32,000 nt of DNA from Candidatus Saccharimonadota bacterium (GCA_046350815.1 JAXLZO010000001.1:510001-542000); one strand, 5' to 3'; numbered from the stretch's first letter, positions 3,589 to 26,126 are shown. Notes: generated from the sequence alone by a model not told the origin. Numbers and translations: made by a program.

Positions 3589-4998
3589 ATGCATCTTCAT
3601 ATTATCGGCATCGGTGGCATCGGCGTTTCTGCTCTTGCTCGCTTCTATCGTCGCTCGCTTGGTTGGCACGTGACTGGGAGTGATGCGAGTGATTTTTCCT
3701 TTCGTGAGCGTCTTGAGTCTGAATGAATAGATGTTTCCATCGGGCATTCAGCGGAAGTAATCACATCTGATACAGATCTGGTGATTTACTCTGAGGCAAT
3801 TATTACGAAGCCGGATCTGAGCTATGCTGAGAATCTTGAGGCAATACCAGAGCTCAAGCGAGCGAAGGAACTTGGAATCCGATCTCTCTCATATCCACAG
3901 GCTCTCTCAGAAATATTCGATGAGCGACAGGGGATTGCTGTGACAGGATCGCATGGGAAATCCACAACCACCGCTATGATTGGTGTCATGCTACAAAATA
4001 CTCCAAAAGCATCGAGTGTGATCGTCGGTACGCAAGTTCCACAGTTTGGTCAGTCCAATTTTTGGAATGCTGAAAGTTCATCCTATTTCACGATCGAAGC
4101 GTGTGAGTACAAGCGATCCTTTCTCGCATATCATCCATACATAACGGTTATCACAAATATTGATCTTGACCATCTTGATTATTACAAAAATCTTGATGAT
4201 TATTTCTCGGCATTTGATTCGATCATTCGTCAAACTCGAGGGTATGTGGTGATGAGATGGGATGATGAGCGAAGTAAAGAGCTCTACCATCGTATCTATG
4301 GATGAATAAATACAGCATGACTTCCGATCCCAGTGATGGTTGGTGAAGGGAAAATAGTTACGATTGTGAATGGTGAAATGAAGTTTGAAGATCTACCATC
4401 ATCGTGGAATCTCCAAGTGCCAGGTGATCATCTCGAACATGATGCGGAGCTTGCCTATGCGGTTGGTCGGATTCTTGGGCTTGATAGTATGATACTTATC
4501 TCAGGTCTCGAATCATATCAGGGTTCATGGAGACGTTCTGAGGTGGTGGGGGAGACAAAAAATCGAAACATACTAATGTCTGACTATGGGCATCATCCTG
4601 AAGAGATCAAACCAACCTTAAAAGCGATCAAACAAAAATATTCAGCTCGCAAGCTCTTTGTGGTATTTCAACCTCATCAATATTCACGTACGAGAGAATT
4701 ACTTTCAGAATTTGCAACATCGTTTGACGATGCGGATGAACTCATGATCCCGAATATTTATTTTTCACGTGATAAAGCGGAAGATGTGGAATATATGACG
4801 ATGGATCGACTCATAACTTTACTCCAGTCTCGTTACCCATGAGTTCAAAATGGTCAAGGACTGGAGGAGACAGCACGATATATCGAGTACTATGATCATT
4901 CTTTCCCAAATTCCTCCGTCATCCTCTTGCTGGGTGCAGGTGATGTAGATAGTTTGCGTGAAGATATTCCGGTGAAAATACTGACTATCGAGTGATAA
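3589..4998 (+). CDS. murC: UDP-N-acetylmuramate--L-alanine ligase
   Basis: ATG 3589. Starts MHLHIIGIGGIGVSALARFY (N-terminal Rossmann) and has the GSHGKSTT P-loop, DLDHLDYY and DYGHHPEEI. Track ORFs 3781..4305 and 4333..4842 plus flanks are all in frame 1, joined by 5 TGA (3724, 4303, 4318, 4840, 4993). Ends TGA-TAA at 4993-4998. Confidence 0.92.
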
Positions 4999-5011
4999 GA
5001 TATTTTTTAAT

Positions 5012-5060
5012 AAAAACACACAACCCATCTTTTGCAAGATGATTTCTGTGTGTTTTTTTG
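5012..5060 (+). terminator. intrinsic terminator after murC
   Basis: aaaacacaca...tgtgtgttttttt long hairpin with an inner catctt/aagatg stem, followed by a T-run. Confidence 0.6.
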
Positions 5061-5115
5061 CAATTTACACGTTTGTATACTATCCTAAAAGAGACTAATT
5101 TTTATCTTTTTCTCT

Positions 5116-7500
5116 ATGAGATTCTCACGAAAAATCTTTCGTCGATCATTCTTTGATCGTTTGATGAATACATCCCGACTCAAGAAACATACACCACTTC
5201 GAGTCAAGCTTCTCACAACATTCGCAATTATAAGCCTCCTCATCAGTGGTCTGACATTTGCTCTCGGATGAGCAAGTGCTGCTATTACATGGCCTTCTGC
5301 TCCTGCCGGAGAGGCTACTGGAGGAGCTATTATGAGTTATTTTAAAAATGCTTTTTGAGATGCAACCACTCAGACAGAAAAGGTGTGTACTAATAGCTGA
5401 GTTGTTCGATGATTTAAGACTGATGGAAATCCTATATGTGCAAGTCTTTCTGAACTCTCTGGTGGGGCATCTACGTCTACTACGCCGCCCACTACCACTA
5501 CTACGCTACCACCTACTACAACAACCACCACAACCACTACGACATCAACCCCAACCCCAACTATTACTTCATTTGGTGCAAGTTCAACATCGATTGCATC
5601 GGGTAGTCCTACTACTCTTTCGTGGAATGTTGCGAATGCCAACCCGAACGGCTGTACTCTCTATGCAGGTAGTACAGCACTCACACCTAACTATGATCCA
5701 GTCGGAAGTAGAACCGTGAGTCCAACATCCAATACTTCCTACAAGATCACCTGTACAGGATTTGGTGTATCAAGTGTCACATCGAGCGATGTAAACATTA
5801 CCGTCAATCAGTTGCCAACTCTTGATTTCAAAGTGAATGCCGGTACTTCCGTCAATACTTCTGCTGGTGATTCTGCCTCCGTATCCTACAACGGATCAGC
5901 AACACTTTCTTGGAATGCCACGAATGCTACATCGTGCACACCGACGAACTTTACACTCCCGAGTAACTATCTGACAACCAACAAATCTCTCACTCTCAAT
6001 AATCTCACCACATCCCAAACAACATATTCCCTCAAATGTGATGGTGCTGGAGGATCCATAACGAAAAGTGTTACGGTGAATGTGGCGAATCCAACCTCTC
6101 CGAATGTAACATTAACCGCGTCATCAACATCTGTATACAACGGAACCGGTGTTACTCTCTCTTGGAGTGTATCGAATGCTACATCATGTGCGGCAAGTAA
6201 CGGATGGACTGGAGATAAATCAACAAACGGTGGAGCCGAACCCGTAACTCCAGCCAACAGCACAACAACAACCTATACTCTCACATGTTACGGACAGTGA
6301 AACACTTCTCGGAGTGTGAGTGCGAGTGTGGAGGCAACGGCACCACCAGTATGTTTTACATATACAACAAATAACAACGAAGTAACCATTACTGGTTATA
6401 AGTGGAATACAACAAGAGGATGCTTAAGTAATACTACACCAACCGTAGAACTTGATATACCATCATCGATTGATGGAAAGACGGTGAAGTTTATTGGAAA
6501 TAATGCTTTCGTGCTCAACAACCTCACCTCAGTGACGATTCCGAACAGTGTGACGAGTATTGGAAATGATGCTTTCTATAGAAACCAACTCACCTCAGTC
6601 ACGATACCAAATAGTGTGACGAGTATTGGAAATGTTGCTTTCTCTTGGAACATGCTCACAGGTTCTCTTGTGATTCCGAATAGTGTGACGAGTATTGGAA
6701 ATGATGCTTTCAAGTACAACAAACTCACATCAGTGACGATTCCGAACAGTGTGACGAGTATTGGAAATGATGCTTTCTCGACCAACGAACTCACAGGTTC
6801 TCTTGTGATTCCGGACAGTGTGACGAGTATTGCGGGTGGTGCTTTCAGGTACAACAATCTCACATCCGTGACGATTCCAAACAGTGTGACGAGTATTGGA
6901 AATAATGCTTTCGAGGACAACGAACTCACCTCAGTGACCATTCCGGACAGTGTGACGAGTATTGGGTATGATGCTTTCCGGAGCAACAATCTCACATCCG
7001 TGACGATTCCAAATAGTGTGACGAGTATTGGGTATGGTGCTTTCCGGAGCAACAATCTCACATCCGTGACGATTCCAAACAGTGTGACGAGTATTGGAAA
7101 TAATGCTTTCGAGGACAACGAACTCACCTCAGTGACCATTCCGGACAGTGTGACGAGTATTGGGTCTAGTGCTTTCAAGTACAACAAACTCACATCAGTG
7201 ACGATTCCGGACAGTGTGACGCGTATTGAAGATCTGACTTTCTATAACAACCAACTTACTTCTGTGACCATTCCAAACAGTGTGACGTTTATTGGATGGG
7301 CTGCTTTCAAGTACAACAAACTCACATCAGTGACGCTTCTGGGTAGTAGGGTAAATATTTGGGATGAGACTTTCTGAGATCAAACCAATTCCGCCTGAAA
7401 CGGTACCGTCTATGGTTCGGCTTATATGCAGAGTTTTTATATTAATAATAACTCTAACCAATTCGACAGATCCAAACTAACAAACTACGTAGTCCAATAA
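5116..7500 (+). CDS. secreted/anchored surface protein: signal anchor, Thr/Pro linker, 3 Ig-like repeats, ~13 BspA-type leucine-rich repeats
   Basis: Frame 1 is open from ATG 5116 (in-frame TAA at 5086 upstream) to TAA 7498-7500, with 7 in-frame TGA.
- N-terminal basic region plus TM segment ([19 protein letters not shown]).
- [27 protein letters not shown] linker.
- Three repeats with the signature LSW-x-NA(T)xC...Y-L/I-x-C-x-G.
- Then 22-23-aa units [22 protein letters not shown], typical of BspA/TpLRR-type LRRs.
It unites track ORFs 5716..6300 and 6316..7377. Confidence 0.85.
5473..5565 (+). repeat. Thr/Pro-rich low-complexity coding tract (ACN/CCN runs)
   Basis: Direct reading gives act acg ccg ccc act acc act act acg cta cca cct act aca aca acc acc aca acc act acg aca tca acc cca acc cca act. 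This is the linker region of the 5116..7500 CDS. Confidence 0.8.
6451..7345 (+). repeat. in-frame tandem LRR-coding repeats (66-69 nt period), including a perfect 115-nt duplication
   Basis: The unit ...ctcac(c/a)tc(a/c)gtgac(g/c)attcc(g/a)(a/g)acagtgtgacgagtattgg... recurs about 13 times. Positions 6853-6967 and 7051-7165 are identical over 115 nt (offset 198 nt = three 22-aa units). Confidence 0.9.
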
Positions 7501-7536
7501 CCCCATACTCCTTATTCCTCAATAACTATCACTCTT

Positions 7537-8145
7537 ATGCCTATCTCTTCCAATCTCAAAAAACTTACTAAACTTACTCTCACTCCTCTTCTCCTCTCTC
7601 TTTCATTCTCCCTCTCCTCTCTTCTGTTCTCACTCCTCCTTACCTCATGTTCCCTCCCGGGAGGAGGGAACAACGTATCGCAAGATACGTCACTCTCACC
7701 AAAACCTCTTATTCCTATTATCTCTTGATCAACGGTTATTCTCGACTATAGATTCTATTCTTCTGGTGAAGTGGTAGAAGAAGGATCATGAGCTACTCTC
7801 CATGTAGGAAAATGAGAAAAATTTCCCATGTTCGATACCGAGCTTCTTGGTATGAAAGCATGAGATAAGAAATCAGTGCTACTGCATGCATCAGTTGCCT
7901 ACGGAACCAAAGATCAAGAACAAATCGTTCGTCGATCTCAGATCACCCGATCAGATACTCCTGGCATGGAATGACTCTTCCATCCAAAAAGAATAGCAAC
8001 GGGATCCACGACCGAATGGAACAATCAAACTATCACCATTAAACAAATCCTTGACGATGAATTCGTTGTCATAACCTACCCAAGACAACACCCACTCGCA
8101 GGAAAAGATCTGACTATGGAAGTGGAAGTAAAGGATGTGAAGTAG
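7537..8145 (+). CDS. FKBP-type peptidyl-prolyl cis-trans isomerase, lipoprotein
   Basis: Signal peptide with lipobox LLLTSC. Under code 25 the frame continues past TGA 7726 to TAG 8143-8145 (5 more TGA). FKBP/SlyD-like motifs: LHVGKGEKFPMFDTELLGMKAGDKKSV, AYG, HPLAGKDLTMEVEVKDV. Confidence 0.8.
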
Positions 8146-8161
8146 AAGATGGTCAGAATAC

Positions 8162-8328
8162 AAGCTCCCCCTAGCCCCCTCAATGAGGGGGAACGAAGAG
8201 ATGTGCATATAAACGACGACCATAACCACTTTCATTAAGAGTGGTTTGTTTGTATCGTATCTTTCCGTCACCAGGTCGCAACAGATGGGTTCATTTCCCC
8301 CTTGTTGAGGGGGATTAAGGGGGAGTTT
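8162..8328. ncRNA. candidate structured RNA, unclassified (or composite 3' UTR/terminator element)
   Basis: An 11-bp closing helix (8162-8172 aagctccccct with 8318-8328 agggggagttt, one G-U) encloses three local hairpins:
- 8175-8191 ccccctc/aat/gaggggg
- 8224-8246 aaccact/.../agtggtt
- 8297-8313 ccccct/tgttg/aggggg
A cgacc/ggtcg helix (8217-8221 with 8274-8278) is also possible. G/C runs are unusual for this AT-rich sequence. It lies between convergent genes. Strand and class are undetermined. Confidence 0.35.
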
Positions 8329-8373
8329 CTTCAATCACAAAAAAATCCATGAAGCGTGATCTTTAATTGAACA

Positions 8374-8408
8374 AAGGAAGATCTTGAATGAGAATCAGGA
8401 TCTTTCTT
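8374..8408. terminator. bidirectional hairpin between convergent genes
   Basis: aagatcttga (8378-8387) pairs with tcaggatctt (8395-8404), one G-U, 7-nt loop. Extendable by ggaaa/tcttt flanks. T-rich on the plus side (tctttctt). Confidence 0.5.
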
Positions 8409-8432
8409 AACGGACTGTGGGCTTGTTTGAAT

Positions 8433-8972
8433 TTATTTTGGAAATTCATTTTTTCTTTGCTCCCTCATAGAGTGAGTTACCCGCAAAATAATTTTATCGC
8501 ACAGGGCTTGTGTATTTGAAGTAATTGGCATATCATCATTACACCATTCAATAAATGCTATTACAAGTCTATTTTGTTTCATAATTCCAATGTCACTGTT
8601 GTAGTCAAGAATATCAAGAATGATTGCTTGTTTGTCAACGGTAAAAGATCATGTGGTTAGCTCTATAGTCTTCTCTTGTATTTTGAGCCAGAGCTCTTTA
8701 GCTCAATCCTCACCTGCGTTACTCGGAAGAATATCCTGAAGATCGATAAGACTATCTTCAAGTTGTGGGGTGATGATTCAGGTGATAGTATGGAGTAATA
8801 CCTCGCGAACTATTTCTTCAAAGACATGGGTTTTGGTTTTTTGCTCTAGAATACTTCCTCAAAATGTGGGATATATATCATTTCATATATATCGAATGAG
8901 AGATGAATGAGATTGGAGGGACGATTCTACATTTTCTTCAATCGTATGTGCAATTGCTCAATGCATGGTCAT
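8433..8972 (-). CDS. hypothetical protein (~179 aa under code 25)
   Basis: Frame walked codon by codon from TAA 8433-8435 up to ATG 8970-8972 (alternative ATGs at 8966 and 9044). 7 in-frame TGA and no TAA/TAG. Not present in the standard-code track. No motif recognised. Confidence 0.5.
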
Positions 8973-9075
8973 ATATATAGGTGAATATCGATTAAGAATT
9001 CATATTACGGGTAAAAAAGAATATGTACAGCTCTTTTTTCCCATTTTTCAATATACTCTTGAGATAATTTTTTCT

Positions 9076-9729
9076 ATGAGAACAATCTTCATTGGTGATG
9101 TTCACGGCTGTCTTTTGGAGCTAAAAGATTTGATTGAAAAACTCTCGATAACTCCACAAGATCGGGTGATACTTCTGTGAGACCTTATCAATAAGTGACC
9201 TTATTCAGCTGAGACCGTACAATACGTCCATGAGAGTGGATTTGAATGTATTCGCGGAAATCATGATGAAGCATATAAGCAGTTTTTTAAACATTCGCAT
9301 TTGAGGCACTATTTTGGTCCGCTCAAATACGAAACTTATAAAGAGACGATGAGTCCAGAGGCACACCAGTGGTATATTCGTACTCCTATCTATATCGAGT
9401 CTGATGAATGGATTGCGGTCCATGCTGGACTTGAGCCGGGCAATGATCCTGCTGATACTGCAAAGAAAATTCTTATGAATATTCGTACATGGGATGAACT
9501 TGGAATAGACCTCGATGATCTTGATAATCCACCTTGGCACAGTCTCTATCGTGAATCGAAGAAGGTGATATACGGACATTGGGCACAACAATGACTTCAT
9601 GTTACTCTCAATACTGTTGGAATCGATACAGGATGCGCTTATGGATGAGAATTGACGGCATATATTTTGGAAACATGAGAAATGATCAGTGTAAAAGCAC
9701 GGGATGTGTACACACGAATCAAAAAATAA
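9076..9729 (+). CDS. metallophosphoesterase, ApaH/PrpE-like (bis(5'-nucleosyl)-tetraphosphatase or Ser/Thr phosphatase family)
   Basis: Begins MRTIFIGDVHGCLLELKDLIEKL (motif I GDxHG). Continues VILL-G-DLINK-G-PYS (motif II GDxxxxGP, both Gly encoded by TGA), GNHDE (motif III) and VHAG..GHW. Joins track ORFs 8965..9180 and 9301..9594. TAA at 9727-9729. Confidence 0.8.
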
Positions 9730-9803
9730 TCTTGTAATTTTCGTAAATTTTTCCATAATCACGCTCCAAGGTTGTTTTTCATCAAATCTGAGGAGGAAAA
9801 AAT

Positions 9804-10169
9804 ATGAATACACGCCTTCTGAATCATCATATGAGCAGTGATCGTCATTTTGGTCATCAAGTATTTGCATTCCGAAAAGTGCTTCAGGATCATCACGTTC
9901 CATATCGCAAAAGCAATGTTCGCATTCTCTACGGTGCGGTATATCTTGATATAGGTCGAGGAGCTATTCGCTACTTTACAAGGGAAAATGCTCTGAAATT
10001 TCTACTTCAAGATGGCAAGCGTTGTTTGAGAGTTGCAAAACGACTCTTGAGTCGTTATTTTCGCCCAGTGCGAATCTTCGGACTGCAACTCTATGAAGCA
10101 ATCAAGTGAGAAATGGACGATAATCAAAAAATCCTCGATTTTCCGAGGATTTTGATTTGACAAAACTAA
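9804..10169 (+). CDS. hypothetical basic protein (101 aa to the first TGA; 121 aa to TAA under code 25)
   Basis: Strong SD gaggagg 7 nt upstream of ATG 9804. Possible promoter ttgtaa-17-ataatc at about 9731-9759. No internal TGA. The first TGA (10107) sits 18 nt before a canonical terminator hairpin; the next TAA (10167) lies beyond it. See finding. Confidence 0.35.
10126..10156 (+). terminator. intrinsic terminator
   Basis: aaaatcctcg (10128-10137), 6-nt loop, cgaggatttt (10144-10153). A perfect 10-bp stem with A-tract and T-tract arms. Confidence 0.65.
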
Positions 10170-10185
10170 AGAATAAGAAATAATA
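10157..10185 (+). promoter_or_regulatory. sigma70-like promoter for the 10268 gene
   Basis: TTGACA 10157-10162, 17-nt spacer, ATAATA 10180-10185. About 80 nt of leader containing a gactgt/gcagtc hairpin precedes the ATG. Confidence 0.45.
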
Positions 10186-10267
10186 CCGCCTGTCGCTCAA
10201 ATCAAGACGACAAGGAGACTGTGAGAAATCGCAGTCAAAATGAAAAAATGGTTACAAGAGGTAGCAT

Positions 10268-10510
10268 ATGACAAATTGTCATGGTGGTGTGGAATCTGGC
10301 AAGATCAAACTTCGCTATATTGAACGTTCGGGTGGAGTTATTCATGCTCCAGGGGAATCGCTCCGTAAATTTGCGGAGGCACATTGTCAAGAAAATCATG
10401 GCGGTCGTGATCGCGGATTTGTCCCCGTTGCTCGTATGGGTGGTAAAATGGCCTACTGGAAATCTGGTGCCTTGCATATTGATCAGACAGCACATCTGGT
10501 TTCCTTCTAA
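10268..10510 (+). CDS. hypothetical small protein (80 aa), Gly/His/Cys-containing
   Basis: ATG 10268 with an in-frame TAG just upstream (10262) and agagg SD-like sequence. Has its own promoter and its own terminator. 12 Gly codons, none TGA. Uses CGT/CGC/GGT/GGC codons and is visibly more GC-rich than its neighbours. Two overlapping alternative-frame ORFs are judged spurious. Confidence 0.5.
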   Translation: MTNCHGGVESGKIKLRYIERSGGVIHAPGESLRKFAEAHCQENHGGRDRGFVPVARMGGKMAYWKSGALHIDQTAHLVSF

Positions 10511-10530
10511 ATTTTCACATCACTCTATGA

Positions 10531-10560
10531 CCCGCTCTCAATGAGTGGGTTTTTCTTTCT
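10531..10560 (+). terminator. intrinsic terminator
   Basis: acccgctc / tcaat / gagtgggt 8-bp stem (one G-U) followed by ttttctttctc. Confidence 0.65.
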
Positions 10561-10648
10561 CTATTTCTCTAAAATAAATTGATTCTTTTTTGAAAAACAA
10601 AGGAAAATGCGTATATTCGATATTACCTTTGTTTTTTATTTCTCCACA

Positions 10649-12001
10649 ATGCTTCAAACAGTTCGTGGAATGCAGGATATCTTCGGTGAATACCAGAGAT
10701 ATTTCACATTTCTCAAGAAAGTAGCCCGTCACGAGTTTCGTAAAAATGGCTTTACTCGTATCTCGACACCCATTATTGAATTTGAGGAACTCATCACTCG
10801 ATCAGCTGGGAATTCTTCCGATATTGTCTCAAAGGAGCTCTATAGTTTTGATGATCGCAAAGAGCGACGCCTTGCGCTTAAGCCAGAGTCAACTGCCGGT
10901 GTTATGCGATCATACTTGACGAATATGCTCGATGAGTCTCAGCCAGTGTACCTCTACTATATTGAGCCGCATTTTCGCTATGATCGTCCACAAAAAGGTC
11001 GCTATCGTCAATTCCATCAGATTGGTGCTGAAATCATCGGTGAACAAGATCCGGTGCTCGATGCGAAGATGATGCATATTGGTTGTCGAATGCTTGATTC
11101 CATAGGACTTAAAGGCGAATATACACTCAAGATTAACTCTCTCGGCAATGAGAAAGAACGTGAAAAATACCTCCTTGATCTACGAGATTTCTTCGAGAAT
11201 AAGCGTCATATTCTCGATGAGACAGATCTTGCTCGTCTCGAGACAAATCCTCTCAGACTTCTCGATAGTAAGAATCCAGAAGTTCGTGGACTCCTCGAAT
11301 ATGCACCAAAAATGGAGAGCTACCTCAAGGGTGAATCCAAGGAATTCTATGCAAAAGTAAAGATGTATTTGGAAATTCTCGGTGTTCCATACGTTGAGGA
11401 TCATACACTCGTTCGAGGTCTTGATTACTATTCTCATACTGTATGGGAATGGGTCGATGGATCAGGCCGCACACAAGATGCATTCGGTGGTGGCGGACGA
11501 TATGATGGACTCTCAAAATCACTCGGACACAAGACTGCTGTTCCAGCAGTAGGATTTGGCATGGGATGTGAGCGCCTCATAGAGGCAATCATGGATCGTG
11601 GTGTGAAGCTTCGAAACAAAGATCGAACCCACCTCTATATCATCCAACTTGGTGAGGATGCAACAAAACTCGCACTTCCACTCAATATTGCAGCTCAAGA
11701 AGCATGACTTAATTCTCTCATTTCGCTTGGCACTCCATCCATCAAGACACAGATGAAGAAAGCAAATCGTCTGGGTGCAACTTACGTAGCTATTATCGGT
11801 ATAATGGAAGCAAGAAATGGCATCTGCCAGCTCAAGAATATGGAGCTTGGGACACAACGAGAGGTGAAGCTTGATGAGCTTGTCTCACTTCTCATCTCCG
11901 AGGTTGATAAGAAAGAGTTGGATTTCTATTCTCCAATGAAAGATTTTGTTATTGAAGAAGTGATTCATTCAGAAATTACAACATCCATAAATGAAAAATA
12001 G
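10649..12001 (+). CDS. hisS: histidine--tRNA ligase
   Basis: Start chosen at MLQTVRGMQDIF (canonical HisRS N-terminus). Class II motifs: LKPESTAGVMRSY, FHQIGAEIIG, GGGRYDGL. TGA at 11705 joins track ORFs 10607..11707 and 11753..12001 (anticodon-binding domain). TAG stop at 11999-12001. Confidence 0.93.
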
Positions 12002-19763: not shown

Positions 19764-19791
19764 TTGACAAGGAGTGGAGTTTTTATACAAT
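19764..19791 (+). promoter_or_regulatory. sigma70-like promoter of the tRNA operon
   Basis: TTGACA 19764-19769, 16-nt spacer, TACAAT 19786-19791, about 20 nt upstream of the first tRNA. Confidence 0.55.
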
Positions 19792-19812
19792 GCCCAGGCT
19801 TTCAATCAGTAA

Positions 19813-19888
19813 GCGGGTGTAGCTCAATGGCTAGAGTCCCTGCCTTCCAAGCAGGCTGTTGTGGGTTCGACTCCCATCGCCCGCTCCA
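19813..19888 (+). tRNA. tRNA-Gly (anticodon UCC), CCA encoded
   Basis: Cloverleaf folded by hand. Acceptor GCGGGTG/CGCCCGC, D arm GCTC..GAGT, anticodon stem CCTGC/GCAGG with loop cuUCCaa, T arm GTGGG-TTCGACT-CCCAT, then T-CCA. Confidence 0.85.
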
Positions 19889-19930
19889 TTTTTTTCTGGA
19901 GCATTTGCAATTCTCAAGATCGTATCGAAT

Positions 19931-20007
19931 GGGCGTATAGCTCAGTTGGTTAGAGCACTTCTCTGATAAGGAAGGGGTCCCTGGTTCGAGTCCAGGTACG
20001 CCCACCA
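19931..20007 (+). tRNA. tRNA-Ile (anticodon GAU), CCA encoded
   Basis: Acceptor GGGCGTA/TACGCCC, D arm GCTC-AGTTGGTTA-GAGC, anticodon loop cuGAUaa, T arm CCTGG-TTCGAGT-CCAGG. Confidence 0.88.
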
Positions 20008-20030
20008 TTCATTTCTGCATACGATATAGT

Positions 20031-20107
20031 CGGAGACTGGCGCAATTGGCTAGCGCACGTGCTTTGGGAGCACGGGGTTGCGAGTTCGAGTCTCGCGTCT
20101 CCGACCA
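20031..20107 (+). tRNA. tRNA-Pro (anticodon UGG), CCA encoded
   Basis: Acceptor CGGAGAC/GTCTCCG, D arm GCGC-AATTGGCTA-GCGC, anticodon stem CGTGC/GCACG with loop uuUGGga, T arm GCGAG-TTCGAGT-CTCGC. Confidence 0.88.
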
Positions 20108-20119
20108 TTTTATTGTTTT

Positions 20120-20194
20120 GGCGCTATCGTCTAGTGGTTAGGACAGCGGGTTTTCATCCCGTAAACCGGAGTTCGATTCTCCGTAGCGCTACCA
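20120..20194 (+). tRNA. tRNA-Glu (anticodon UUC), CCA encoded
   Basis: Acceptor GGCGCTA/TAGCGCT (G1-U72), GTCTAGTGGTTAGGAC D arm typical of tRNA-Glu, anticodon loop uuUUCau, T arm CGGAG-TTCGATT-CTCCG. Confidence 0.85.
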
Positions 20195-20209
20195 TCTTTG
20201 GTTCTATTT

Positions 20210-20284
20210 GGCGGGGTAGCTCAGTGGTAGAGCAGAGGCCTGAAAAGCCTTGTGTCGGTGGTCCGATTCCACTCCTCGCCACCA
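20210..20284 (+). tRNA. tRNA-Phe (anticodon GAA), CCA encoded
   Basis: Acceptor GGCGGGG/CCTCGCC, D arm GCTC-AGTGGTA-GAGC, anticodon stem GAGGC/GCCTT with loop cuGAAaa, T arm GGTGG-TCCGATT-CCACT. Confidence 0.85.
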
Positions 20285-20326: not shown

Positions 20327-20389
20327 ACATTGGTGATTTAGATGAATATCTATACAATTTGATTTATTCAATCGTATTTTCCGACTATT

Positions 20390-22873
20390 ATGCAAAAAGA
20401 GGCTCAATCTCGTATAAAAATCAATAAGCTCCTCGAGAAATCTGGATGGAGTTTTCTCGATAAAGAGAAGCAAAAAGCTAATATTCAAGTGGAAGCATGA
20501 GTTAAGCTCGATCATCTATGAGATGATTTTGAGCATGCTCCTCGAGGTGCAATTGATTATCTCCTCCTCGATAGTCGTGGTTTTCCTATTTGTGTACTCG
20601 AGGCAAAGAAAGAATCCATCCATCCACTTTCAGCAAAAGAACAAGCTCGAGACTATGCGATCTCGAAAAATGCTCGATTTATTATCCTCTCAAATGGTAA
20701 CTCACACTATCTCTGGGATAGAGAAAATGGGAATCCTGAACTCATCACAGAATATCCAACTCAGGCATCTCTCGAACATAGATCGACCTATAATCCAGAT
20801 GTTTCCTCGCTCGCTGATATCCAGATAAATGCTGAGTATCTTGCTCCAGCAAAATATCTCAGACCCTATCAAGTTTGAGCTATACAAGCCATCCAAGCTT
20901 GGGCAAAAGAATGAAAGACACGTTATCTTCTCGAGATGGCTACGGGAACAGGAAAGACAACCACCTCAGCTGCAATATGTAAATTGTTTCTTCAGACAGG
21001 AAATGCGAAAAGAATACTCTTTCTTGTGGATCGAATAGAACTTGAAGATCAGGCGAAAAAGGCTTTTGCAGAAGAAATATTCAAATGAGTATATTTTGTC
21101 GATACAATCAAGTCAGGTGAGTGGCAAAAATGCCAAATTGTTGTCTCTACTATCCAGACCCTTATGGCTGGTGATAGATATAAAGAGCTTTTTTCTCCGA
21201 CAGATTTTGAGCTCGTGATATCCGATGAGGCACATAGATCGATATGAGGCAATGCTCGTGCAGTATTCGAGTATTTTATCGGATACAAACTTGGACTCAC
21301 AGCCACACCAAAGGATTATCTCAAAGGAATCGATGAAAAAGCGGGGATGTCAGAAAATCCGAAAGCACTTGAAATCAGAAACCTCAGAGATACATATAAA
21401 ACCTTTGGTTGTGAAGCATGAGAGCCAACATTTCGCTATGATCTTTCGGCCGGAGTGCAAGATGGCTTTCTCATCAATCCGTATGTTATCGATGCTCGTA
21501 CTGATGTGACGACTGAGCTTCTCTCTCTAGAATGATTTACTCTTGAAGTCGAGAACGATGACGGTGAATCGAGTGAGGAATCATTTGGAATACGTGACTT
21601 TGAAAAAAGATTTTTCAATGAAAAAACAAATCAGATATTTGCTGAAACAATCATCCAAAATGGACTTCTTGATCCTCTCACAGGTGAATTCGGCAAGATG
21701 CTTGTATTTGCTGTAAGTCAGTCCCATGCAGCCAAGATTGTCAATCTCCTCAATGCCATTGCTATGAAAAAATGGCCAGGGAAGTATGATTCTGATTTTG
21801 CGATGCAGGTGACGAGTAGTGTTATGAGATCACAGGATTTCACCAAGGATTTCACCAATAATCGTCTCTCTGGACGTTCGCACTTTGCAGATAGTACTCA
21901 TCCAGATTATGAGACTGGGAAGACTCGAATATGTGTGACCGTAGGCATGATGACGACTGGATATGACTGTCCTGACCTCCTCGGGGTAGTGCTTCTTCGT
22001 CCAGTATTTTCACCAGCGGATTTCGTCCAGATGAAGGGGCGAGGTACTAGAAAACATGTATTTCTCTATCAGGAAACGGGAGAAAAGGTAGAAAAAGATA
22101 AATTTCTCCTCCTTGATTTCTTCGGGAATTGTGAGTACTTCGAGAAGGATTTTGACTACAATAAAAAGCTCGATCTTCCTGCAATCTCGCAGAAAAAAGA
22201 TGGTCCGATAGTCATCGTAGATCCTCCAATCAATCCTGATGATGTAGATGCGAGAGTAGACGATAAAGTCCGTTCAGAGACAATTATCCAAGTCTGAAAA
22301 GAGTGAATGCGTATTGATCAGGAACTCTATCGCAAACCAAAACACGAACAGTTCGAGTATGTGTTACAAAATAGTGAGACTATAAGAGAGATAAATGAAA
22401 CTTCTGGGATCGAGTGAGTCGAAGAATTTCTGAAGAGTGAAGTATTCAATAAGCCAAATGAGTACTGGAATCCTCAAAAACTCCGAGAATCCTATGAGAA
22501 AGTCTATAATACTGGTAGGCGTATCACTCTCCGAGAAATGATCTCTAAAGCATTTGGATTTCTCCGAGGATTCGAGTCTCGCGATGAACGACTTGACACA
22601 GAGTGGCAGAAGTTCCTGATTACTGAGCGACCGAATGTCGAAACTGGTGAACAACTTCGCAAGCTCAAGATCATATTCGAGACATATTTAGCTGATGAGA
22701 GGTTCCGTTCTATCATTGATTCAGGTAGTATTGCCGGACTCGATAGCTATAGCTCTCTCGTTAACATGAACGATATTAGGCTCGTCTGAGGTCGTCCTAC
22801 TGTTGATGCTGTACGCAATTATTCGAGTGAATATCTCACGAGTGCGATGAGAGAATTTAGTTTCTCAAAATAA
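20390..22873 (+). CDS. hsdR: Type I restriction enzyme R subunit (HsdR; PD-(D/E)xK nuclease + SF2 helicase + EcoEI-R-like C-terminal region)
   Basis: Frame 2 walked codon by codon from ATG 20390 to TAA 22871-22873: 12 in-frame TGA and no TAA/TAG.
- N-terminus MQKEAQSRIKINKLLEKSGW.
- Nuclease core D-YLLLD...VLEAKKE.
- Helicase motifs: I EMATGTGKT, II ISDEAHRS, III GLTATP, VI QMKGRGTR.
Only two pieces (21698..22297 and 22538..22789) appear in the standard-code track. Confidence 0.9.
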
Positions 22874-22885
22874 CAATAACTTTAT

Positions 22886-25351
22886 ATGCTCAACTCCACT
22901 ACCAAAAATCGTATCAACTCCTGTCGAGACATGCTCGTGGGTAAACTCCCCGATCCTAAAAGCCAGATCGACCAGATCACGAACGCCCTCGTCTATAAGT
23001 TCATGGATGATCAGGATCGTATGAGTCGAGAGCTTGGGTATGATGCGAGCTTTTTTATCTGAGACTATGAACAATATGCATGGTCTAAGCTCTTTGATAA
23101 TAGACTTACCAATCAAGAGAAAGCGAATCTCTACAGTGAGTGACTCGATAAATTATCAGTAGCTGATCATCTTCCTGAGCTTTTCAAGCAAATATTCAAA
23201 AATGCGAGACTCCCATTCAAGGATCCAAGTACTATTACCATGTTCCTTGCTGAAATCAATGGGTTTAGCTATCATCACTCAGAAGAACTTGGTAATGCAT
23301 TTGAGTACCTATTATCTGTCATGGGAAGCCAATGAGATACAGGTTCATTTCGCACACCTCGTCATATCATTGAGTTCCTCGTCGATGTTGTTGATCCAAA
23401 AAGATGAGAAACAATCTATGACCCTGCCTGTGGAACAGCATGATTTCTTATTGAGGCTTTTAATCATATCAAATCAGCTTGAGATCTCAGCGTTTCAGAT
23501 ACGGCAACGCTCTGAAAAAATATTTCCTGAGTTGATATCGACCCTGGTATGGCGAAGATTGCCCGAGTGAACCTCTACCTTCATGGATTCAAAACACCGA
23601 ATATTGATGAAAATGACACTCTTTCAAATGAAAAACTCTGGTGAATGAAACGCGATGTGATACTGGCTAATCCGCCCTTTATGACACCAAAAGGAGGGAT
23701 AAGGCCTCATGAAAAATTCAGCTCGAAAACAAGTAAATCTGAGGTTCTTTTTACTGACTATATTATTGAACATTTGAAGCTCCATGGTCGCGCTGGTATC
23801 ATCGTGCCTGAGGGTATTATGTTCAATGGATCAAATGCTTATAAAGATCTCAGAAAAAAACTCGTAGATGGATGATACCTCTGGGCGGTGGCATCACTTC
23901 CAAGTGGGGTATTCAATCCCTATGCAGGAGTGAAGACCTCTATACTCTTTCTCGATCGAGAACGAGCAAAAGCCAATGATTCTATCCTCTTCGTGAAGAT
24001 ATCTGCAGATGGATATGATCTCGGAGCTCAACGTCGTCCAATTGAGAAAAATGATCTCCCAAAAGCTCTCGAAGTCCTGAATCAGTATAAAGAAAATCCT
24101 AATATCGAACTAGAAAATGAGCCGCTTTCTCACCTCGTAGAAAAATCAAAAATTGCAGAAAATGGAGAATATAATCTCAGTGGAGATAGATACATTCTTG
24201 GTCCAGAAAATCCCGCTTCTTCATTTGACCTAATAAAATTAGATGAACTTGTAGAAATTCAAAATGGATATGCTTTTCAGAGTGAAAAATACTCTGAAAG
24301 TTGATATCAAGTCATACGAATCACTAATGTTCAAAAAGGATTTATTGATCCAAAAGATCCAAAATTTTATCCGGATAATGAAGTGAAAAACTTAACTGAC
24401 TTTATTCTATCAAAGTGAGATTTATTAATGTCTCTGACTTGAAATGTTTGAAGAGTGTGAGTACTCAAAATAGAGCATCTTCCTGCAGTATTGAACCAAC
24501 GGGTTGCAAAGTTAAAAATTAAAAACCCCACTATTATAAATAAGAATTATCTTTTTCATTTATTAAATTCAGATAAATTTGAAAATGATGCTATGGCACT
24601 TTCAGGTGGAGTTGCTCAAAAGAATTTATGAACTACCAGTTTAAAAGAGTATCAAATCCCTCTCCCTCCTCTCGAAATCCAAGAACAGATCGTGTCTGAG
24701 CTCGATGGATATCAGCGGATCATCGATGGAGCTCGAGCGGTCGTCGAGAATTATAAGCCGACGATCAAGATAGATCCGGAGTGGGAGATGGTGGAGTTGG
24801 GAGAGGTGTGTGATGTTTCTTCTGGAGGAACCCCTCCGCGTGATACTGAAGAATATTGGAAGGATGGAACTATACCCTGGGTATGATCGTCTGTTTGTAA
24901 GAACCAATTTGTGTTCGCATCTGAGGAATATATTACAGAGGTATGATTGAAGAAGTCAGCCGCTAAATTATTTAAACCATACACCACTCTCATGGCATTA
25001 GTATGAGCAACAATCTGAAAAACTGGTTTATTATTATTTCCATGCACTACAAATCAGAATATCGCCTGATTATATCCTAAAGATGATACTATTCTCTCAC
25101 CAAAGTTTCTATTCTTTATTTCACAATCTCTTTACGATGAATTTATGAGATTATGAGATTGAAAATTTAAGATGGCAAATTTAGGTTTTGTGAGATGATT
25201 AAAAATCCCTCTCCCTCCTCTCGAAATACAGAAAACTATCGTCGAGCGGATCGAGGAAGAACAGAGGCTCGTCGATGCGAATCGGAGGCTCATAGAGATC
25301 TATGAAGGGAAGATATGAGAGAAGATGGATGAAGTCTGGGGGATAAAATAA
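22886..25351 (+). CDS. fused Type I R-M methyltransferase-specificity protein (HsdM-HsdS in one 821-aa polypeptide)
   Basis: Frame 2 is open from ATG 22886 to TAA 25349-25351, with 25 in-frame TGA and no TAA/TAG (codon-walked).
- HsdM part: LVGKLPDPKSQIDQITNALVYKFMDD, FRTPRHIIEFLV, YDPACGTA-G-FL (motif I), NPPF (motif IV), YNLSGDRY.
- HsdS part follows with no stop or start: TRD1, T-G-NV-G-RV-G-V..LNQRVAKL, central IPLPPLEIQEQIV, TRD2, V-G-ATI-G-KTG..TNQNIA-G-L, distal IPLPPLEIQKTIV..RLIEIYE. Confidence 0.85.
24654..25227 (+). repeat. 25-nt perfect direct repeat pair inside the HsdS part (24654-24678 and 25203-25227)
   Basis: aaatccctctccctcctctcgaaat occurs twice, 549 nt apart. It encodes the two conserved IPLPPLEI helices that flank TRD2. 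Confidence 0.9.
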
Positions 25352-25410
25352 TTTGAGTATGATAGAAAATTCTAACAACACTATATGTTCATATATTGGT
25401 ATGCTGAAAT

Positions 25411-25449
25411 GAATAAATAACCCCTCCAAATTGGAGGGGTTATTTATTC
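25411..25449. terminator. bidirectional terminator between hsdMS and the RHH gene
   Basis: gaataaataacccctcc / aaatt / ggaggggttatttattc, about 17 bp of near-perfect stem. It overlaps the stop codon of the minus-strand gene. Confidence 0.75.
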
Positions 25450-25787
25450 GAAGTGGCAAGCTCATTCGGATGCAGAGCAATTTCCTTGAGAAATGAGCTC
25501 ATATTTGAGAATCCGTATTGTTTTGCATTCTCTTGAATGATCGCCTTTTCTTCTGGGGTAAGTCGGAATCTGAGTATAGCGCTTTTTTTTGAGCGATATT
25601 CGCTCTCTGATTCAATAAGATTTGGGAGATCTTCAAGAAATGCCGGTATATCTTCATTCTCAAATTCTTGGTTGATATTTGCAGCCTCACAAACGACAAG
25701 AGAAAGATGTTCTCCGAGAGGAGAGATAGGAAGTGGTGTAATAGAATATTCGTGACTCCTTTTATTTATTTGAATATAGTGTTTCAT
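25440..25787 (-). CDS. ribbon-helix-helix (MobC/CopG-like) protein, putative antitoxin partner of HicA
   Basis: Intact 115-aa ORF. The C-terminal AILRFRLTPEEKAIIQENAKQYGFSNMSSFLKEIAL fits the RHH pattern (beta strand RxRLT, then two helices). It lies directly downstream of hicA on the same strand, as hicB does. The N-terminal part does not look like a classical HicB. Confidence 0.6.
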   Translation of the reverse strand: MKHYIQINKRSHEYSITPLPISPLGEHLSLVVCEAANINQEFENEDIPAFLEDLPNLIESESEYRSKKSAILRFRLTPEEKAIIQENAKQYGFSNMSSFLKEIALHPNELATSNK

Positions 25788-25860
25788 AGTGAAAGATTGA
25801 AATAGAAGTGAAAGATTGAAACGTAAAGATAGAAGTGAAAGATGGAGTATGGAAGTGGAT
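25788..25860 (-). repeat. short direct repeats in the hicA-RHH spacer
   Basis: AGTGAAAGAT occurs at 25788, 25807 and 25834 (the first two extended to AGTGAAAGATTGAAA; the second and third preceded by AGA), plus a degenerate aagtggat at 25853. Confidence 0.8.
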
Positions 25861-25889: not shown

Positions 25890-26126
25890 TTATGGTAATT
25901 CTTGAATAGATTTTTTAGCGAGTTTTTTATATGTGGGCTTGCAATCGTTGTTATGGATTGGAATTATAAGGTCTTTTGAGAGAAGTTCATGTTTCCATTT
26001 CACATGACTTCATTTTGCCTGGATCTCACCAAATCCGTATGCAATGAGGATTTTTGTAAGATCTGAGTAGCTAATACTTTCGGGATTCTGAAAGAATTTC
26101 GCAAGAAGTTTATCTATCTGTGTCAT
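25890..26126 (-). CDS. hicA: HicA-family mRNA interferase toxin
   Basis: 78 aa: MTQIDKLLAKFFQNPESISYSDLTKILIAYGFGEIQAK-G-SHVKWKHELLSKDLIIPIHNNDCKPTYKKLAKKSIQEL. Matches the HicA pattern (..l...GF......GSH..f.h......iP.H....l....l..i). The GSH Gly is a TGA. Absent from the standard-code track. Confidence 0.8.

What the first reader, a model, noticed from the sequence alone, without database searches (positions are those of the whole stretch)
20390..25351. Type I R-M locus with HsdM and HsdS fused into a single polypeptide, next to a separate HsdR
**Seen in sequence:** There is no TAA/TAG, no in-frame ATG and no SD-like sequence between the end of the methyltransferase module (...AENGEYNLSGDRYILGPENPASS) and the start of a complete two-TRD specificity module (FDLIKLDELVEIQNGYAFQ...). 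The ORF is 821 aa. HsdR (827 aa) ends 12 nt upstream.

**Established knowledge:** Canonical Type I systems encode HsdM and HsdS as separate subunits assembling as M2S1(R2). Single-chain designs are known for Type ISP and Type IIG/IIB enzymes, but those also carry the nuclease/motor in the same chain.

**Inference:**
- An M-S fusion with a free-standing helicase-nuclease would fix M:S at 1:1 and implies a different assembly, for example a dimer in which only part of each S is used.
- The 37 TGA(Gly) codons across the two genes indicate long residence in a code-25 genome, not recent import.
Basis: partly seen in the sequence, partly recalled or inferred. Interest (0 to 1): 0.7.

Follow-up and report, generated by a model that had tools for sequence, protein, structure and literature searches.

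The report
Natural fused M-S Type I restriction system
This is a real two-gene restriction-modification system whose methylase and DNA-recognition subunit are one protein, but the design is common in public genomes and was already engineered and named "Type IMS" in 2012, so it is an ordinary member of an under-studied family.

Summary
With TGA read as Gly (code 25), hsdR (20390-22873, 827 aa) is followed after 12 nt by one 821-aa ORF (22886-25351). That ORF holds HsdM_N, an N6-adenine methylase domain, a roughly 9-aa unconserved linker and a complete two-TRD specificity module. It is not an assembly artefact: two independent assemblies are 100% identical, and 77 of 80 distant homologous loci keep one continuous M-to-S frame.

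The architecture is not rare. The 80 loci span about 20 phylum-level groups. All 73 with upstream DNA have a homologous hsdR upstream on the same strand, and none has a separate hsdM or hsdS. Of the 150 closest 50%-identity cluster representatives, 139 are at least 600 aa. PGAP labels the pair only "DEAD/DEAH box helicase family protein" and "N-6 DNA methylase".

Roberts et al. (2012) engineered this layout in EcoKI and named it "Type IMS". A sibling allele in another code-25 sample keeps M and the conserved helices (83-100%) but has both TRDs replaced, which is typical Type I specificity shuffling.

How one M serves two TRDs without a free hsdM gene remains unresolved. Verdict: new member of a known kind, modest interest.

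The parts
19764..19791 (+). Promoter-like site TTGACA-16-TACAAT (11 of 12), 22 nt upstream of the tRNA cluster. It could drive the tRNA cluster and perhaps read through into hsdR.
   Evidence: The total count of promoter-like sites in the region is not above the shuffled expectation, so this is a lead only. No promoter-like site lies between 20284 and 20390.
19813..20284 (+). Cluster of five tRNA genes (Gly-tcc, Ile-gat, Pro-tgg, Glu-ttc, Phe-gaa) immediately upstream of hsdR. This is context, not part of the R-M system.
   Evidence: ARAGORN.
20390..22873 (+). hsdR: 827-aa restriction subunit made of a nuclease domain and an SF2 translocase. It contains 12 in-frame TGA (Gly) codons.
   Evidence: NCBIfam's best match is the EcoAI/FtnUII family subunit R (233 bits, below the 550 cutoff); PADLOC's best is REase_I. 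Homologs at 29-64% identity lie upstream of the fusion gene in 73 of 73 loci that have upstream DNA.
20471..20734 (+). HsdR N-terminal PD-(D/E)xK nuclease domain (aa 28-115) with D56...E71-A-K73.
   Evidence: Pfam HSDR_N / HSDR_N_2. The D...VLEAK.E motif is at least 95% conserved in 65 homologs.
20858..22054 (+). HsdR SF2 motor: ResIII (aa 157-308) through Helicase_C (aa 506-555). It carries Walker A EMATGTGKT (182-190), DEAH (279-282), LGLTATP and Q.KGRGTR.
   Evidence: All of these motifs are at least 95% conserved in 65 homologs.
22874..22885 (+). 12-nt spacer between the hsdR stop and the hsdMS ATG (CAATAACTTTAT). It implies an operon and probably coupled translation.
   Evidence: The median R-to-MS gap in homologous loci is about 100 nt.
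22886..25351 (+). hsdMS: one 821-aa ORF that fuses the methyltransferase and the specificity subunit. It contains 25 in-frame TGA (Gly) codons.
22904..23203 (+). HsdM N-terminal helical domain (aa 7-106).
   Evidence: Pfam HsdM_N, weak (E = 0.0057). The region is helical in the AF2 model, and the whole M part superposes on the HsdM structure 2okc with TM 0.75-0.77.
23282..24199 (+). Gamma-class N6-adenine methyltransferase catalytic domain (aa 133-438). Motif I is DPACGTAGF (179-187), motif IV is NPPF (262-265), and it ends with YNLSGDRY (429-436).
   Evidence: Pfam N6_Mtase, 3.9e-60. PADLOC MTase_I, 1e-95. D179 P180 A181 G183 T184 F187 and N262-F265 are invariant in 56 homologs.
24200..24226 (+). 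M-to-S linker (aa 439-447, LGPENPASS). It is short and unconserved and has no stop or start codon. The 40-70-residue C-terminal tail of split HsdM proteins is absent.
   Evidence: The consensus is 'x' throughout this stretch. pLDDT is below 50 at 440-443. Identity to the sibling allele is 11% here. The solved HsdMs 7vru_A and 3lkd_A continue for 39 and 67 residues past the equivalent point.
24227..24655 (+). TRD1 (aa 448-590), the first target-recognition domain.
   Evidence: Pfam Methylase_S and PADLOC Specificity_I. It is 25% identical to the sibling allele, which is otherwise 97-100% identical in M.
24656..24778 (+). Central conserved region CR1 (aa 591-631), with a helix at 596-622 followed by the conserved YKPxIxIDPxW segment.
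   Evidence: AF2 helix H596-622. Conservation. It is 93% identical to the sibling allele.
24779..25207 (+). TRD2 (aa 632-774), the second target-recognition domain.
   Evidence: Pfam Methylase_S at 632-792. It is 27% identical to the sibling allele. TRD1+CR1 and TRD2+CR2 of the same protein are 36% identical over the 116 residues that align, so an asymmetric target is expected.
25208..25351 (+). C-terminal conserved helix CR2 (aa 775-821) plus the TAA stop.
   Evidence: AF2 helix H779-818. It is 83% identical to the sibling allele.

Best explanation
This is a functional two-gene, ATP-dependent Type I-like restriction-modification operon of the 'Type IMS' layout, sitting in the chromosome of a code-25 (TGA = Gly) bacterium. 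The first gene, hsdR, encodes a PD-ExK nuclease joined to an SF2 DNA translocase. The second gene, hsdMS, encodes a gamma-class N6-adenine methyltransferase joined through a roughly 9-residue unconserved linker to a specificity module of two different TRDs and two conserved helices.

Inferred by analogy with Type I enzymes and with the engineered fusions: the MS protein binds an asymmetric bipartite DNA target through its two TRDs. It methylates adenines when the site is hemimethylated. On unmodified sites it recruits HsdR, which pulls in DNA using ATP and cuts away from the site. New specificities arise when TRD cassettes are exchanged between the conserved M and helix frameworks.

Inferred and untested: no separate hsdM gene exists, so the second methyltransferase needed for the second half-site most likely comes from a second MS chain. 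That chain is either intact, giving (MS)2 with one idle S module, or C-terminally clipped, as was seen with the engineered S. aureus fusion.
For: Shown here:
- Domain content and order.
- Catalytic motifs are invariant or nearly so in M and at least 95% conserved in R across 65 homologs.
- Fold matches to solved HsdM (2okc, 5ybb, PacII) and S (1yf2) structures.
- The R-then-MS gene pair is conserved: HsdR lies upstream on the same strand in 73 of 73 loci with upstream DNA, 77 of 80 loci have a continuous M-to-S ORF, and none of 80 has a second M or S within 10 kb.
- Where something is inserted between R and MS (20 loci) it is varied cargo, never a methyltransferase.
- The M framework diverges slowly (50-67% identity) and the S part fast (27-56%).
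- A sibling allele has HsdM_N 100%, MTase 97%, CR1 93%, CR2 83%, but TRD1 25% and TRD2 27% identity. That is classic Type I TRD reassortment and implies selection on specificity.
- Codon usage and GC match the host.

From the literature:
- Engineered EcoKI and S. aureus M-S fusions restrict and modify in vivo with only HsdR added (PMC3510504; PMC6158711).
- The purified S. aureus fusion co-purifies with a clipped M-containing fragment and then needs no extra HsdM.
- A one-TRD form of the same family exists on E. coli IncF plasmids. By analogy with the engineered M-halfS fusion, it should dimerise.
Against: There is no functional data for this locus or for any natural member that I could find. 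The target motif, the methylation pattern, ATP dependence and cleavage are all inferred.

The purified engineered EcoKI fusion was inactive in vitro without added free HsdM, so a simple (MS)2 assembly is not guaranteed to work.

The natural M module lacks the C-terminal helical tail that anchors split HsdM to the S coiled coil, so how a second M would dock is unclear.

The AF2 model has pTM 0.52, so the M-to-S orientation is not reliable. It was also computed on P0001, which is the same gene with all 25 TGA codons read as Trp instead of Gly.

R scores below the NCBIfam cutoffs for every named Type I R family.
Confidence: 0.85

Rival explanations
1. The canonical M2S1 core is restored because free M, or M plus a TRD fragment, is made from the fused gene itself. 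The route would be proteolytic clipping in or after the linker, or ribosome stalling or termination near the junction. The active enzyme would then be R2 + M + MS rather than R2(MS)2. This rivals only the assembly step of the best explanation, not the identification of the system.
For: The engineered EcoKI fusion needed added HsdM in vitro, and its authors proposed proteolysis or translational stalling in vivo. The engineered S. aureus fusion co-purified with a ~73 kDa clipped fragment consisting of M plus half of TRD1. The linker here is unconserved and has low pLDDT, so it is likely exposed.
Against: The junction carries no conserved sequence feature (stop, start or conserved linker residues) that would suggest a programmed event. 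The natural M lacks the C-terminal tail that anchors free HsdM to S, so a freed M would have no obvious docking element. Nothing here tests it directly.
Confidence: 0.3
2. The fusion is an assembly or sequencing artefact, namely a missing base or lost stop that merges separate hsdM and hsdS genes.
For: None found.
Against: Two independent assemblies from different runs are identical through the junction. A 93%-identical relative and 77 of 80 distant loci have the same continuous frame. Of the 150 nearest cluster representatives, 139 are at least 600 aa, so they are too long to be an M module alone.
Confidence: 0.01
3. The locus is a decaying or domesticated remnant. MS would act as an orphan (regulatory) methyltransferase, and HsdR would be inactive or serve another role.
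For: There is no functional data. Some Type I systems are reported to have incomplete methylation or doubtful restriction, for example the PAO1 discussion in PMC5358918.
Against: Both ORFs are intact. The nuclease and all helicase motifs match the family consensus. The R-MS linkage is essentially universal in the family. TRD replacement between near-identical alleles points to ongoing selection on specificity.
Confidence: 0.05
4. It is really a Type IIG/IIB, Type ISP, MADS or BREX-type component that was misread as Type I.
For: There are weak hits to Eco57I and MmeI_Mtase, to MADS2/MAD5 and BREX PglX, and to PADLOC mad2/mad5 and REase_MTase_IIG. Foldseek finds the single-chain enzymes BpuSI and CamA at low TM.
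Against: All of those hits fall far below the curated cutoffs (for example MADS2 94 vs 720 bits and PglX 40 vs 500) and cover only the shared MTase or TRD folds. The MS chain has no nuclease domain, and its N-terminus is HsdM_N. The nuclease sits on a separate protein together with an SF2 motor, which Type IIG/IIB enzymes lack and Type ISP enzymes have in the same chain. No other MADS or BREX genes flank the pair.
Confidence: 0.03

Closest known systems
Engineered 'Type IMS' enzymes: the EcoKI MSFusion (Roberts et al. 2012, PMC3510504) and the S. aureus CC398-1 MSfus (Bower et al. 2018, PMC6158711)
   Same: HsdM is joined in frame to a two-TRD HsdS, and HsdR is separate. Both engineered fusions restrict and modify in vivo with unchanged specificity. 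The 2012 definition (an M-S fusion with one or two TRDs plus a separate HsdR) fits this locus exactly.
   Different: Those enzymes are laboratory constructs that join full-length subunits, including the HsdM C-terminal tail, from Type IA and S. aureus systems. Here the fusion is natural and ancient, the M module has no tail, R is EcoAI-like, gene order is R then MS, and no hsdM gene exists to supply free M.
Type IB systems (EcoAI/EcoEI) and the NCBIfam EcoAI/FtnUII subunit R family
   Same: HsdR is short (about 810-830 aa), and its best named family match is EcoAI/FtnUII. Roberts et al. proposed an M-S fusion as the evolutionary intermediate between the IA/IC and IB families.
   Different: R scores 233 bits against a cutoff of 550, so it is not a member by that test. 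Type IB systems have separate hsdM and hsdS genes. I did not compare the M or S modules directly with EcoAI.
M2.Dac11109IV of the m4C/m6A Type I systems (Morgan et al. 2016, PMC5100572)
   Same: It is a natural Type I methyltransferase gene fused to its S subunit.
   Different: That system has a second, separate methyltransferase (M1), so it keeps two M per S. The family studied here has only the fused gene.
Single-chain Type IIB/IIG enzymes AloI, CjeI and relatives (reviewed in PMC3874165)
   Same: They have one methyltransferase domain per two TRDs in one chain, which poses the same unresolved stoichiometry problem. The review calls it 'a mystery'.
   Different: In those enzymes the nuclease is fused at the N-terminus, there is no ATP-driven motor, and cleavage is at fixed distances on both sides of the site.
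Type ISP enzymes (LlaGI, LlaBIII)
   Same: They combine Type I-like functions (nuclease, SF2 motor, gamma-class MTase, TRD) with covalent joining of M and TRD.
   Different: All functions are in one polypeptide, there is a single TRD, and the target is a continuous asymmetric sequence.
R + M~half-S pair on E. coli IncF plasmids (e.g. NZ_CP116482.1) and R + M~S on Paracoccus zhejiangensis pPZ02 (NZ_CP025432.1)
   Same: They belong to the same protein family (R 48-49% and M about 50% identical to the window's proteins) with the same gene order.
   Different: The E. coli form has one TRD (677 aa) and is followed by a TrlF-family AAA-like ATPase gene. Both records are annotated only as 'DEAD/DEAH box helicase family protein' and 'N-6 DNA methylase'.

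Membership tests
Type I restriction-modification system (classical definition) | R function: an endonuclease domain plus an SF2 ATP-dependent translocase in one subunit | tested here: met
   HSDR_N, ResIII and Helicase_C are present. The PD-ExK, Walker A, DEAH and motif III/VI residues are at least 95% conserved. PADLOC assigns REase_I.
Type I restriction-modification system (classical definition) | M function: gamma-class N6-adenine methyltransferase of the HsdM type, with an HsdM_N domain | tested here: met
   N6_Mtase at 3.9e-60 and a weak HsdM_N hit. NPPF and DPACGTAGF are invariant. The fold matches HsdM structures. TIGR00497 hsdM scores only 76 bits against a cutoff of 243, so it is not an equivalog of classical HsdM.
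Type I restriction-modification system (classical definition) | S function: two TRDs alternating with two conserved helical regions | tested here: met
   There are two Methylase_S stretches and helices at 596-622 and 779-818. 1yf2 is the best PDB sequence hit.
Type I restriction-modification system (classical definition) | Three separate subunits that assemble as R2M2S1 | tested here: not met
   M and S are one polypeptide. The stoichiometry itself cannot be tested with these tools.
Type I restriction-modification system (classical definition) | Bipartite asymmetric target, m6A on both strands, ATP-dependent translocation and cleavage far from the site | not testable with these tools
   This needs methylome data and biochemistry. 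The only support is indirect: the two TRDs differ and the motor motifs are intact.
Type IMS (Roberts et al. 2012 definition) | HsdM fused to HsdS (one or two TRDs) in one protein, with a separate HsdR subunit | tested here: met
   Definition quoted. Gene structure shown. No other hsdM or hsdS in 80 homologous loci.
Type IB family (EcoAI/EcoEI) | HsdR belongs to the EcoAI/FtnUII equivalog family | tested here: not met
   NF046051 scores 233 bits against a cutoff of 550. It is the best-scoring named R family but not a membership-level match.
Type IB family (EcoAI/EcoEI) | Separate hsdM and hsdS genes; family assignment by complementation or hybridisation | tested here: not met
   The genes are fused. 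Complementation cannot be tested here.
Type ISP | Nuclease, motor, MTase and a single TRD all in one polypeptide | tested here: not met
   R is a separate gene, and the MS chain has two TRDs and no nuclease or motor.
Type IIB/IIG single-chain enzymes (AloI/CjeI-like) | Nuclease domain fused N-terminal to the MTase, with no ATPase motor subunit | tested here: not met
   The N-terminus of MS is the helical HsdM_N domain. The partner gene encodes an SF2 motor.
MADS / BREX methyltransferases | Score above the NCBIfam cutoff for MAD2, MAD5 or PglX, plus the other system genes nearby | tested here: not met
   MADS2 scores 94 against 720, MAD5 37 against 400, and PglX 40 against 500. The flanking genes are tRNAs, ClpP, aminoacyl-tRNA synthetases and HicA.

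The most novel reading that the evidence does not exclude
The natural R + M~S(two-TRD) family may not rebuild a canonical M2S1 core at all. The covalent tether has replaced the HsdM C-terminal tail that normally anchors M to the S coiled coil, and no free hsdM gene exists. The working enzyme could therefore be a non-canonical assembly. One option is R2(MS)2 with one idle or second-site-binding S module. Another is an M1S1 unit that methylates only one half-site. If so, this abundant and easily expressed family would be a natural model for the unsolved problem of one methyltransferase serving two TRDs, which it shares with AloI and CjeI. It would also be a living example of the proposed intermediate between Type I families.
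Probability: 0.3. Interest if true: 0.55.

Novelty: new member of a known kind. Interest (0 to 1): 0.33.

Why it matters
The locus itself is one more restriction system, and its only unusual aspect is that it lives in a code-25 genome. The family-level picture matters a little more.

A two-gene hsdR + hsdMS module is widespread. It occurs in about 20 phylum-level groups, on a Paracoccus plasmid, and as a one-TRD form on E. coli IncF plasmids. Standard annotation nevertheless calls it only "helicase" and "N-6 DNA methylase", so surveys of defence systems may undercount it.

It is the natural counterpart of the engineered "Type IMS" enzymes. Unlike them, it has no source of free HsdM and no HsdM tail. 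Working out its assembly could therefore show how one methyltransferase serves two recognition domains. The single-ORF M-S design could also make it simpler to transfer or engineer methylation specificities.

Tried and rejected
1. "HsdMS" in Pseudomonas papers (PMC5358918 and bioRxiv 10.1101/2024.10.21.619520) looked like a characterised natural fusion. Reading them showed that PA2735 and PA2734 are separate genes.

2. Full-text searches for "Type IMS", "MS fusion", "fused into a single" and similar terms (one search failed on syntax) turned up little. They found only the engineered fusions, the one-line note on M2.Dac11109IV, and the AloI/CjeI discussion. I found no paper characterising this natural family. 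REBASE could not be queried.

I used P0001 instead, which turned out to be the same gene with its 25 TGA codons read as Trp. Domain folds are confident, but pTM of 0.52 means the M-S arrangement cannot be used. No dimer or complex prediction was possible.

4. I looked for a programmed event at the junction (in-frame starts, stops, SD sites, conserved linker) and found nothing.

5. I tested whether the sibling allele's TRD1 is the window's TRD2 moved to the other position. They are only 43% identical, so this is not a recent domain move.

6. I checked the 20 loci with 0.4-2.1 kb between R and MS for a hidden second methyltransferase. They hold varied cargo only, which I identified from sequence motifs rather than by HMM: Fic/DOC, RhuM-like, IS200-type transposase, Schlafen/AlbA-like, HEPN-like and others.

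7. The promoter and terminator scan gave counts at or below the shuffled expectation. Only the 11-of-12 site upstream of the tRNAs is worth noting.

8. The count of 584 related loci is a lower bound on relatives, but I verified the architecture only for the best 80.

Full report
**Observation.**
Under the standard bacterial code the region is a mosaic of short ORFs. When only TAA and TAG are treated as stops, the total ORF length in the window rises about fourfold (13.5 kb to 59 kb, both strands). Two long + strand ORFs then appear at 20342-22873 and 22880-25351.

The second ORF has its first ATG at 22886 and encodes 821 aa. The first ORF, read from the ATG at 20390, encodes 827 aa and stops 12 nt before that ATG. 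The two genes contain 12 + 25 = 37 in-frame TGA codons. In an alignment with 18 more distant homologs these positions are mostly Gly (224 of 450 cells, Trp 12), and they include the invariant glycines of the SAM-binding motif. The window also carries a tRNA cluster, but no suppressor tRNA was seen.

Between residues 415 and 475 of the 821-aa protein there is no stop and no in-frame ATG, GTG or TTG. The only SD-like strings are two GGAG tetramers inside codons. Every factual statement in the finding is therefore correct.

**Not an artefact.**
Logan assemblies of two separate runs (SRR26348422 and SRR26348423) contain the same hsdR, hsdMS, 148-aa ORF and HicA arrangement. They are 100% identical to the window over 6222 and 5387 nt, junction included. 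The database protein P0001, listed as 97% identical, is this same gene with its 25 TGA codons translated as Trp. A relative from a third sample (L085, P0002) is 93% identical in DNA across the 3' end of hsdR and all of the M module, and it keeps the single frame.

**What the proteins are.**
- *HsdR.* It has an HSDR_N-type PD-(D/E)xK nuclease domain, a ResIII/DEAD motor and Helicase_C. Its best named family is the EcoAI/FtnUII Type I subunit R, but at 233 bits against a cutoff of 550. PADLOC calls it REase_I. Across 65 full-length homologs, the nuclease D...VLEAK.E motif, Walker A EMATGTGKT, the DE.H box, LGLTATP and Q.KGRGTR are at least 95% conserved.
- *The 821-aa protein.* It has a weak HsdM_N match, N6_Mtase at 133-438 (3.9e-60) and two Methylase_S stretches. 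PADLOC's MTase_I model PDLC03021 covers residues 3-436, and many Specificity_I models cover 445-800. Motif I (DPACGTAGF) and motif IV (NPPF) are invariant in 56 homologs.
- *Solved structures.* PDB sequence hits are all separate M or S chains.
- *Model.* An AF2 model has mean pLDDT 84.9 and pTM 0.52, and it was computed on the Trp-substituted P0001. It shows a helical N-domain, the Rossmann-fold MTase, a disordered stretch at 440-443, two beta-rich TRDs, and long helices at 596-622 and 779-818. The M part superposes on HsdM structures (2okc TM 0.75-0.77; PacII M 0.70) and the S part on 1yf2.
- *Missing tail.* Solved split HsdMs that align through the end of the catalytic domain continue for 39 residues (7vru_A) and 67 residues (3lkd_A). 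Here TRD1 starts about 10 residues after YNLSGDRY. The HsdM tail that normally packs against the S coiled coil is therefore absent.

**How common the fusion is.**
- *Protein collection.* A search returned 8000 of 8000 scored candidates at E < 1e-10. The best 120 are almost all 783-921 aa with full coverage and carry both N6_Mtase and Methylase_S.
The best 80 loci come from about 20 phylum-level groups (Bacteroidota, many CPR lineages including Absconditabacterales, Planctomycetota, Chloroflexota, Verrucomicrobiota, Pseudomonadota, Bacillota, Spirochaetota, Acidobacteriota and others) plus one archaeon.
- *ORF continuity.* In 77 of those 80 loci the M and S parts form one continuous table-11 ORF of 804-881 aa. 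The three exceptions are broken elsewhere, not at the junction.
- *Gene neighbours.* In all 73 loci with upstream sequence, an HsdR homolog (median 47% identity) lies upstream on the same strand, usually 12-200 nt away. No locus has a second M or S within 10 kb. In the 20 loci with 0.4-2.1 kb between R and MS, the insert is varied cargo and never a methyltransferase.
- *Cluster representatives.* In an exhaustive HMMER search of 1.84 billion 50%-identity representatives, the 150 best hits split by length as follows: 79 of 780-899 aa, 16 of 900 aa or more, 6 of 700-779 aa, 38 of 600-699 aa (one-TRD size or fragments) and 11 under 600 aa.
- *Distance to split HsdM.* On plasmids, the M module is about 51% identical to fused-family members but at most 32% identical to any split HsdM. 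The fused family is thus a distinct, large clade.
- *Annotation.* RefSeq labels the pair only as "DEAD/DEAH box helicase family protein" and "N-6 DNA methylase". Examples are Paracoccus zhejiangensis pPZ02 and the E. coli IncF plasmids, where the MS protein has a single TRD.

**Evidence that the system is active and evolving.**
The L085 allele compares with the window's MS protein as follows: HsdM_N 100%, MTase 97%, linker 11%, TRD1 25%, CR1 93%, TRD2 27%, CR2 83%. Both recognition domains have been replaced inside a conserved framework. That is the hallmark of Type I specificity diversification, and the exchange boundary lies right after the MTase domain. Across the 80 loci, M identity is 50-67% while S identity is 27-56%. 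Within the window's protein, the TRD1+CR1 and TRD2+CR2 halves are only 36% identical over the 116 residues that align, so I predict an asymmetric bipartite target.

**Host adaptation.**
The share of Gly codons that are TGA is 0.22 in hsdR and 0.40 in hsdMS, against 0.05-0.44 in the other long ORFs of the window. GC content is 0.39-0.41, the same as the surroundings. The flanks are chromosomal housekeeping genes: ProRS, TyrRS and ClpP, then five tRNAs, the R-M pair, a HicA toxin, an M48 peptidase and a Mur-ligase-domain protein.

**Comparison with what is known.**
- Roberts et al. (2012, PMC3510504) removed the 1-nt frameshift between EcoKI hsdM and hsdS. The fusion plus HsdR restricted and modified in vivo. 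They named the design "Type IMS", explicitly for one- or two-TRD fusions with a separate HsdR, and proposed it as an intermediate between Type IA/IC and IB.
- Their purified fusion needed added free HsdM in vitro. They favoured R2 + M + MS but also considered R2(MS)2 with a spare S.
- Bower et al. (2018, PMC6158711) made the same fusion in a S. aureus system. It was active without added HsdM because a clipped fragment (M plus half of TRD1) co-purified with it. An M-halfS fusion dimerised cleanly.
- Morgan et al. (2016, PMC5100572) noted one natural M~S fusion, M2.Dac11109IV, in a system that also has a separate M1.
- Loenen et al. (2014, PMC3874165) describe the same puzzle of one RM unit per two TRDs in AloI and CjeI as "a mystery".
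- I found no publication characterising the natural R + M~S family. REBASE could not be consulted.

**Mechanism.**
- *Shown:* gene structure, domains, motifs, conserved two-gene linkage, absence of a free hsdM, and TRD reassortment.
- *Inferred from Type I biology and the engineered fusions:* MS binds a bipartite site and methylates adenines, and HsdR supplies ATP-driven translocation and distal cleavage on unmodified sites.
- *Unresolved:* the source of the second methyltransferase. I favour a second MS chain, intact or clipped, at roughly even odds between those two forms. The reasons are that no free M gene exists in any of 80 loci, and that the one-TRD relatives should form (M-halfS)2 if they behave like the engineered M-halfS fusion. 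The missing HsdM tail leaves real room for a non-canonical assembly.

**Verdict.**
The locus is a new member of a known kind: a natural Type IMS-layout Type I system. It belongs to a large family that is poorly annotated and, as far as I could find, biochemically uncharacterised.

Noticed in passing
L085:1074-3533 (Logan SRR28522271), compared with window 22886-25351: A sibling hsdMS allele from another code-25 sample has 27 in-frame TGA codons. It is 93% identical in DNA through the hsdR 3' end and all of M, but both TRDs are replaced (25% and 27% aa identity) while CR1 and CR2 stay at 93% and 83%. The exchange boundary sits right at the M/S linker.
   Followed up: yes
L082 (E. coli IncF plasmid NZ_CP116482.1), locus 4406-11954: Many E. 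coli IncF plasmids carry a three-gene row from the same family: HsdR-like helicase (849 aa, 48% identity), an M fused to a single TRD (677 aa, M about 50% identity), and a 'TrlF family AAA-like ATPase'. It is annotated without any R-M label and lies between the tra region (after finO) and the repA replication genes.
   Followed up: partly
window 19764-20284: A near-consensus sigma-70-type promoter (TTGACA-16-TACAAT) lies 22 nt upstream of a five-tRNA cluster (Gly, Ile, Pro, Glu, Phe) that ends 105 nt before hsdR. No promoter-like site lies in between, so the R-M operon may be read through from the tRNA promoter. An R-M pair directly next to a tRNA array could also mark an old insertion site.
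   Followed up: partly
window 25890-26126 (-): There is a 78-aa HicA-family toxin ORF just downstream of hsdMS, with no recognisable HicB antitoxin among the ORFs I called. The adjacent 148-aa ORF (25359-25805, +) has no Pfam match. Both are also present in the independent contig L083.
   Followed up: partly
P0001 (protein collection) versus window 22886-25351: The public protein collection holds this gene translated with TGA as Trp, giving 25 Gly-to-Trp errors. Proteins from code-25 organisms in such collections can therefore be systematically mistranslated. The scattered Trp residues at TGA-aligned columns in other homologs probably have the same cause.
   Followed up: yes
L003, L005, L010, L027, L036, L042, L050, L063, L064, L067, L080 (between hsdR and hsdMS): In 20 of 73 loci a 0.4-2.1 kb insert separates hsdR from hsdMS. 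By sequence motifs (not HMM-checked), the inserts carry unrelated cargo: Fic/DOC proteins, a RhuM-like protein, IS200-type transposases, Schlafen/AlbA-like ATPase-regulator proteins and four-helix-bundle proteins. Such interspersed genes are typical of Type I loci.
   Followed up: partly
window 24761-24784 (aa 626-633 of MS) and homologs: The segment YKPxIxIDPxW between the central helix and TRD2 is nearly invariant across 56 fused homologs, far more conserved than the M-to-TRD1 linker. It might be a docking element for a methyltransferase acting in trans, but I did not test this.
   Followed up: no
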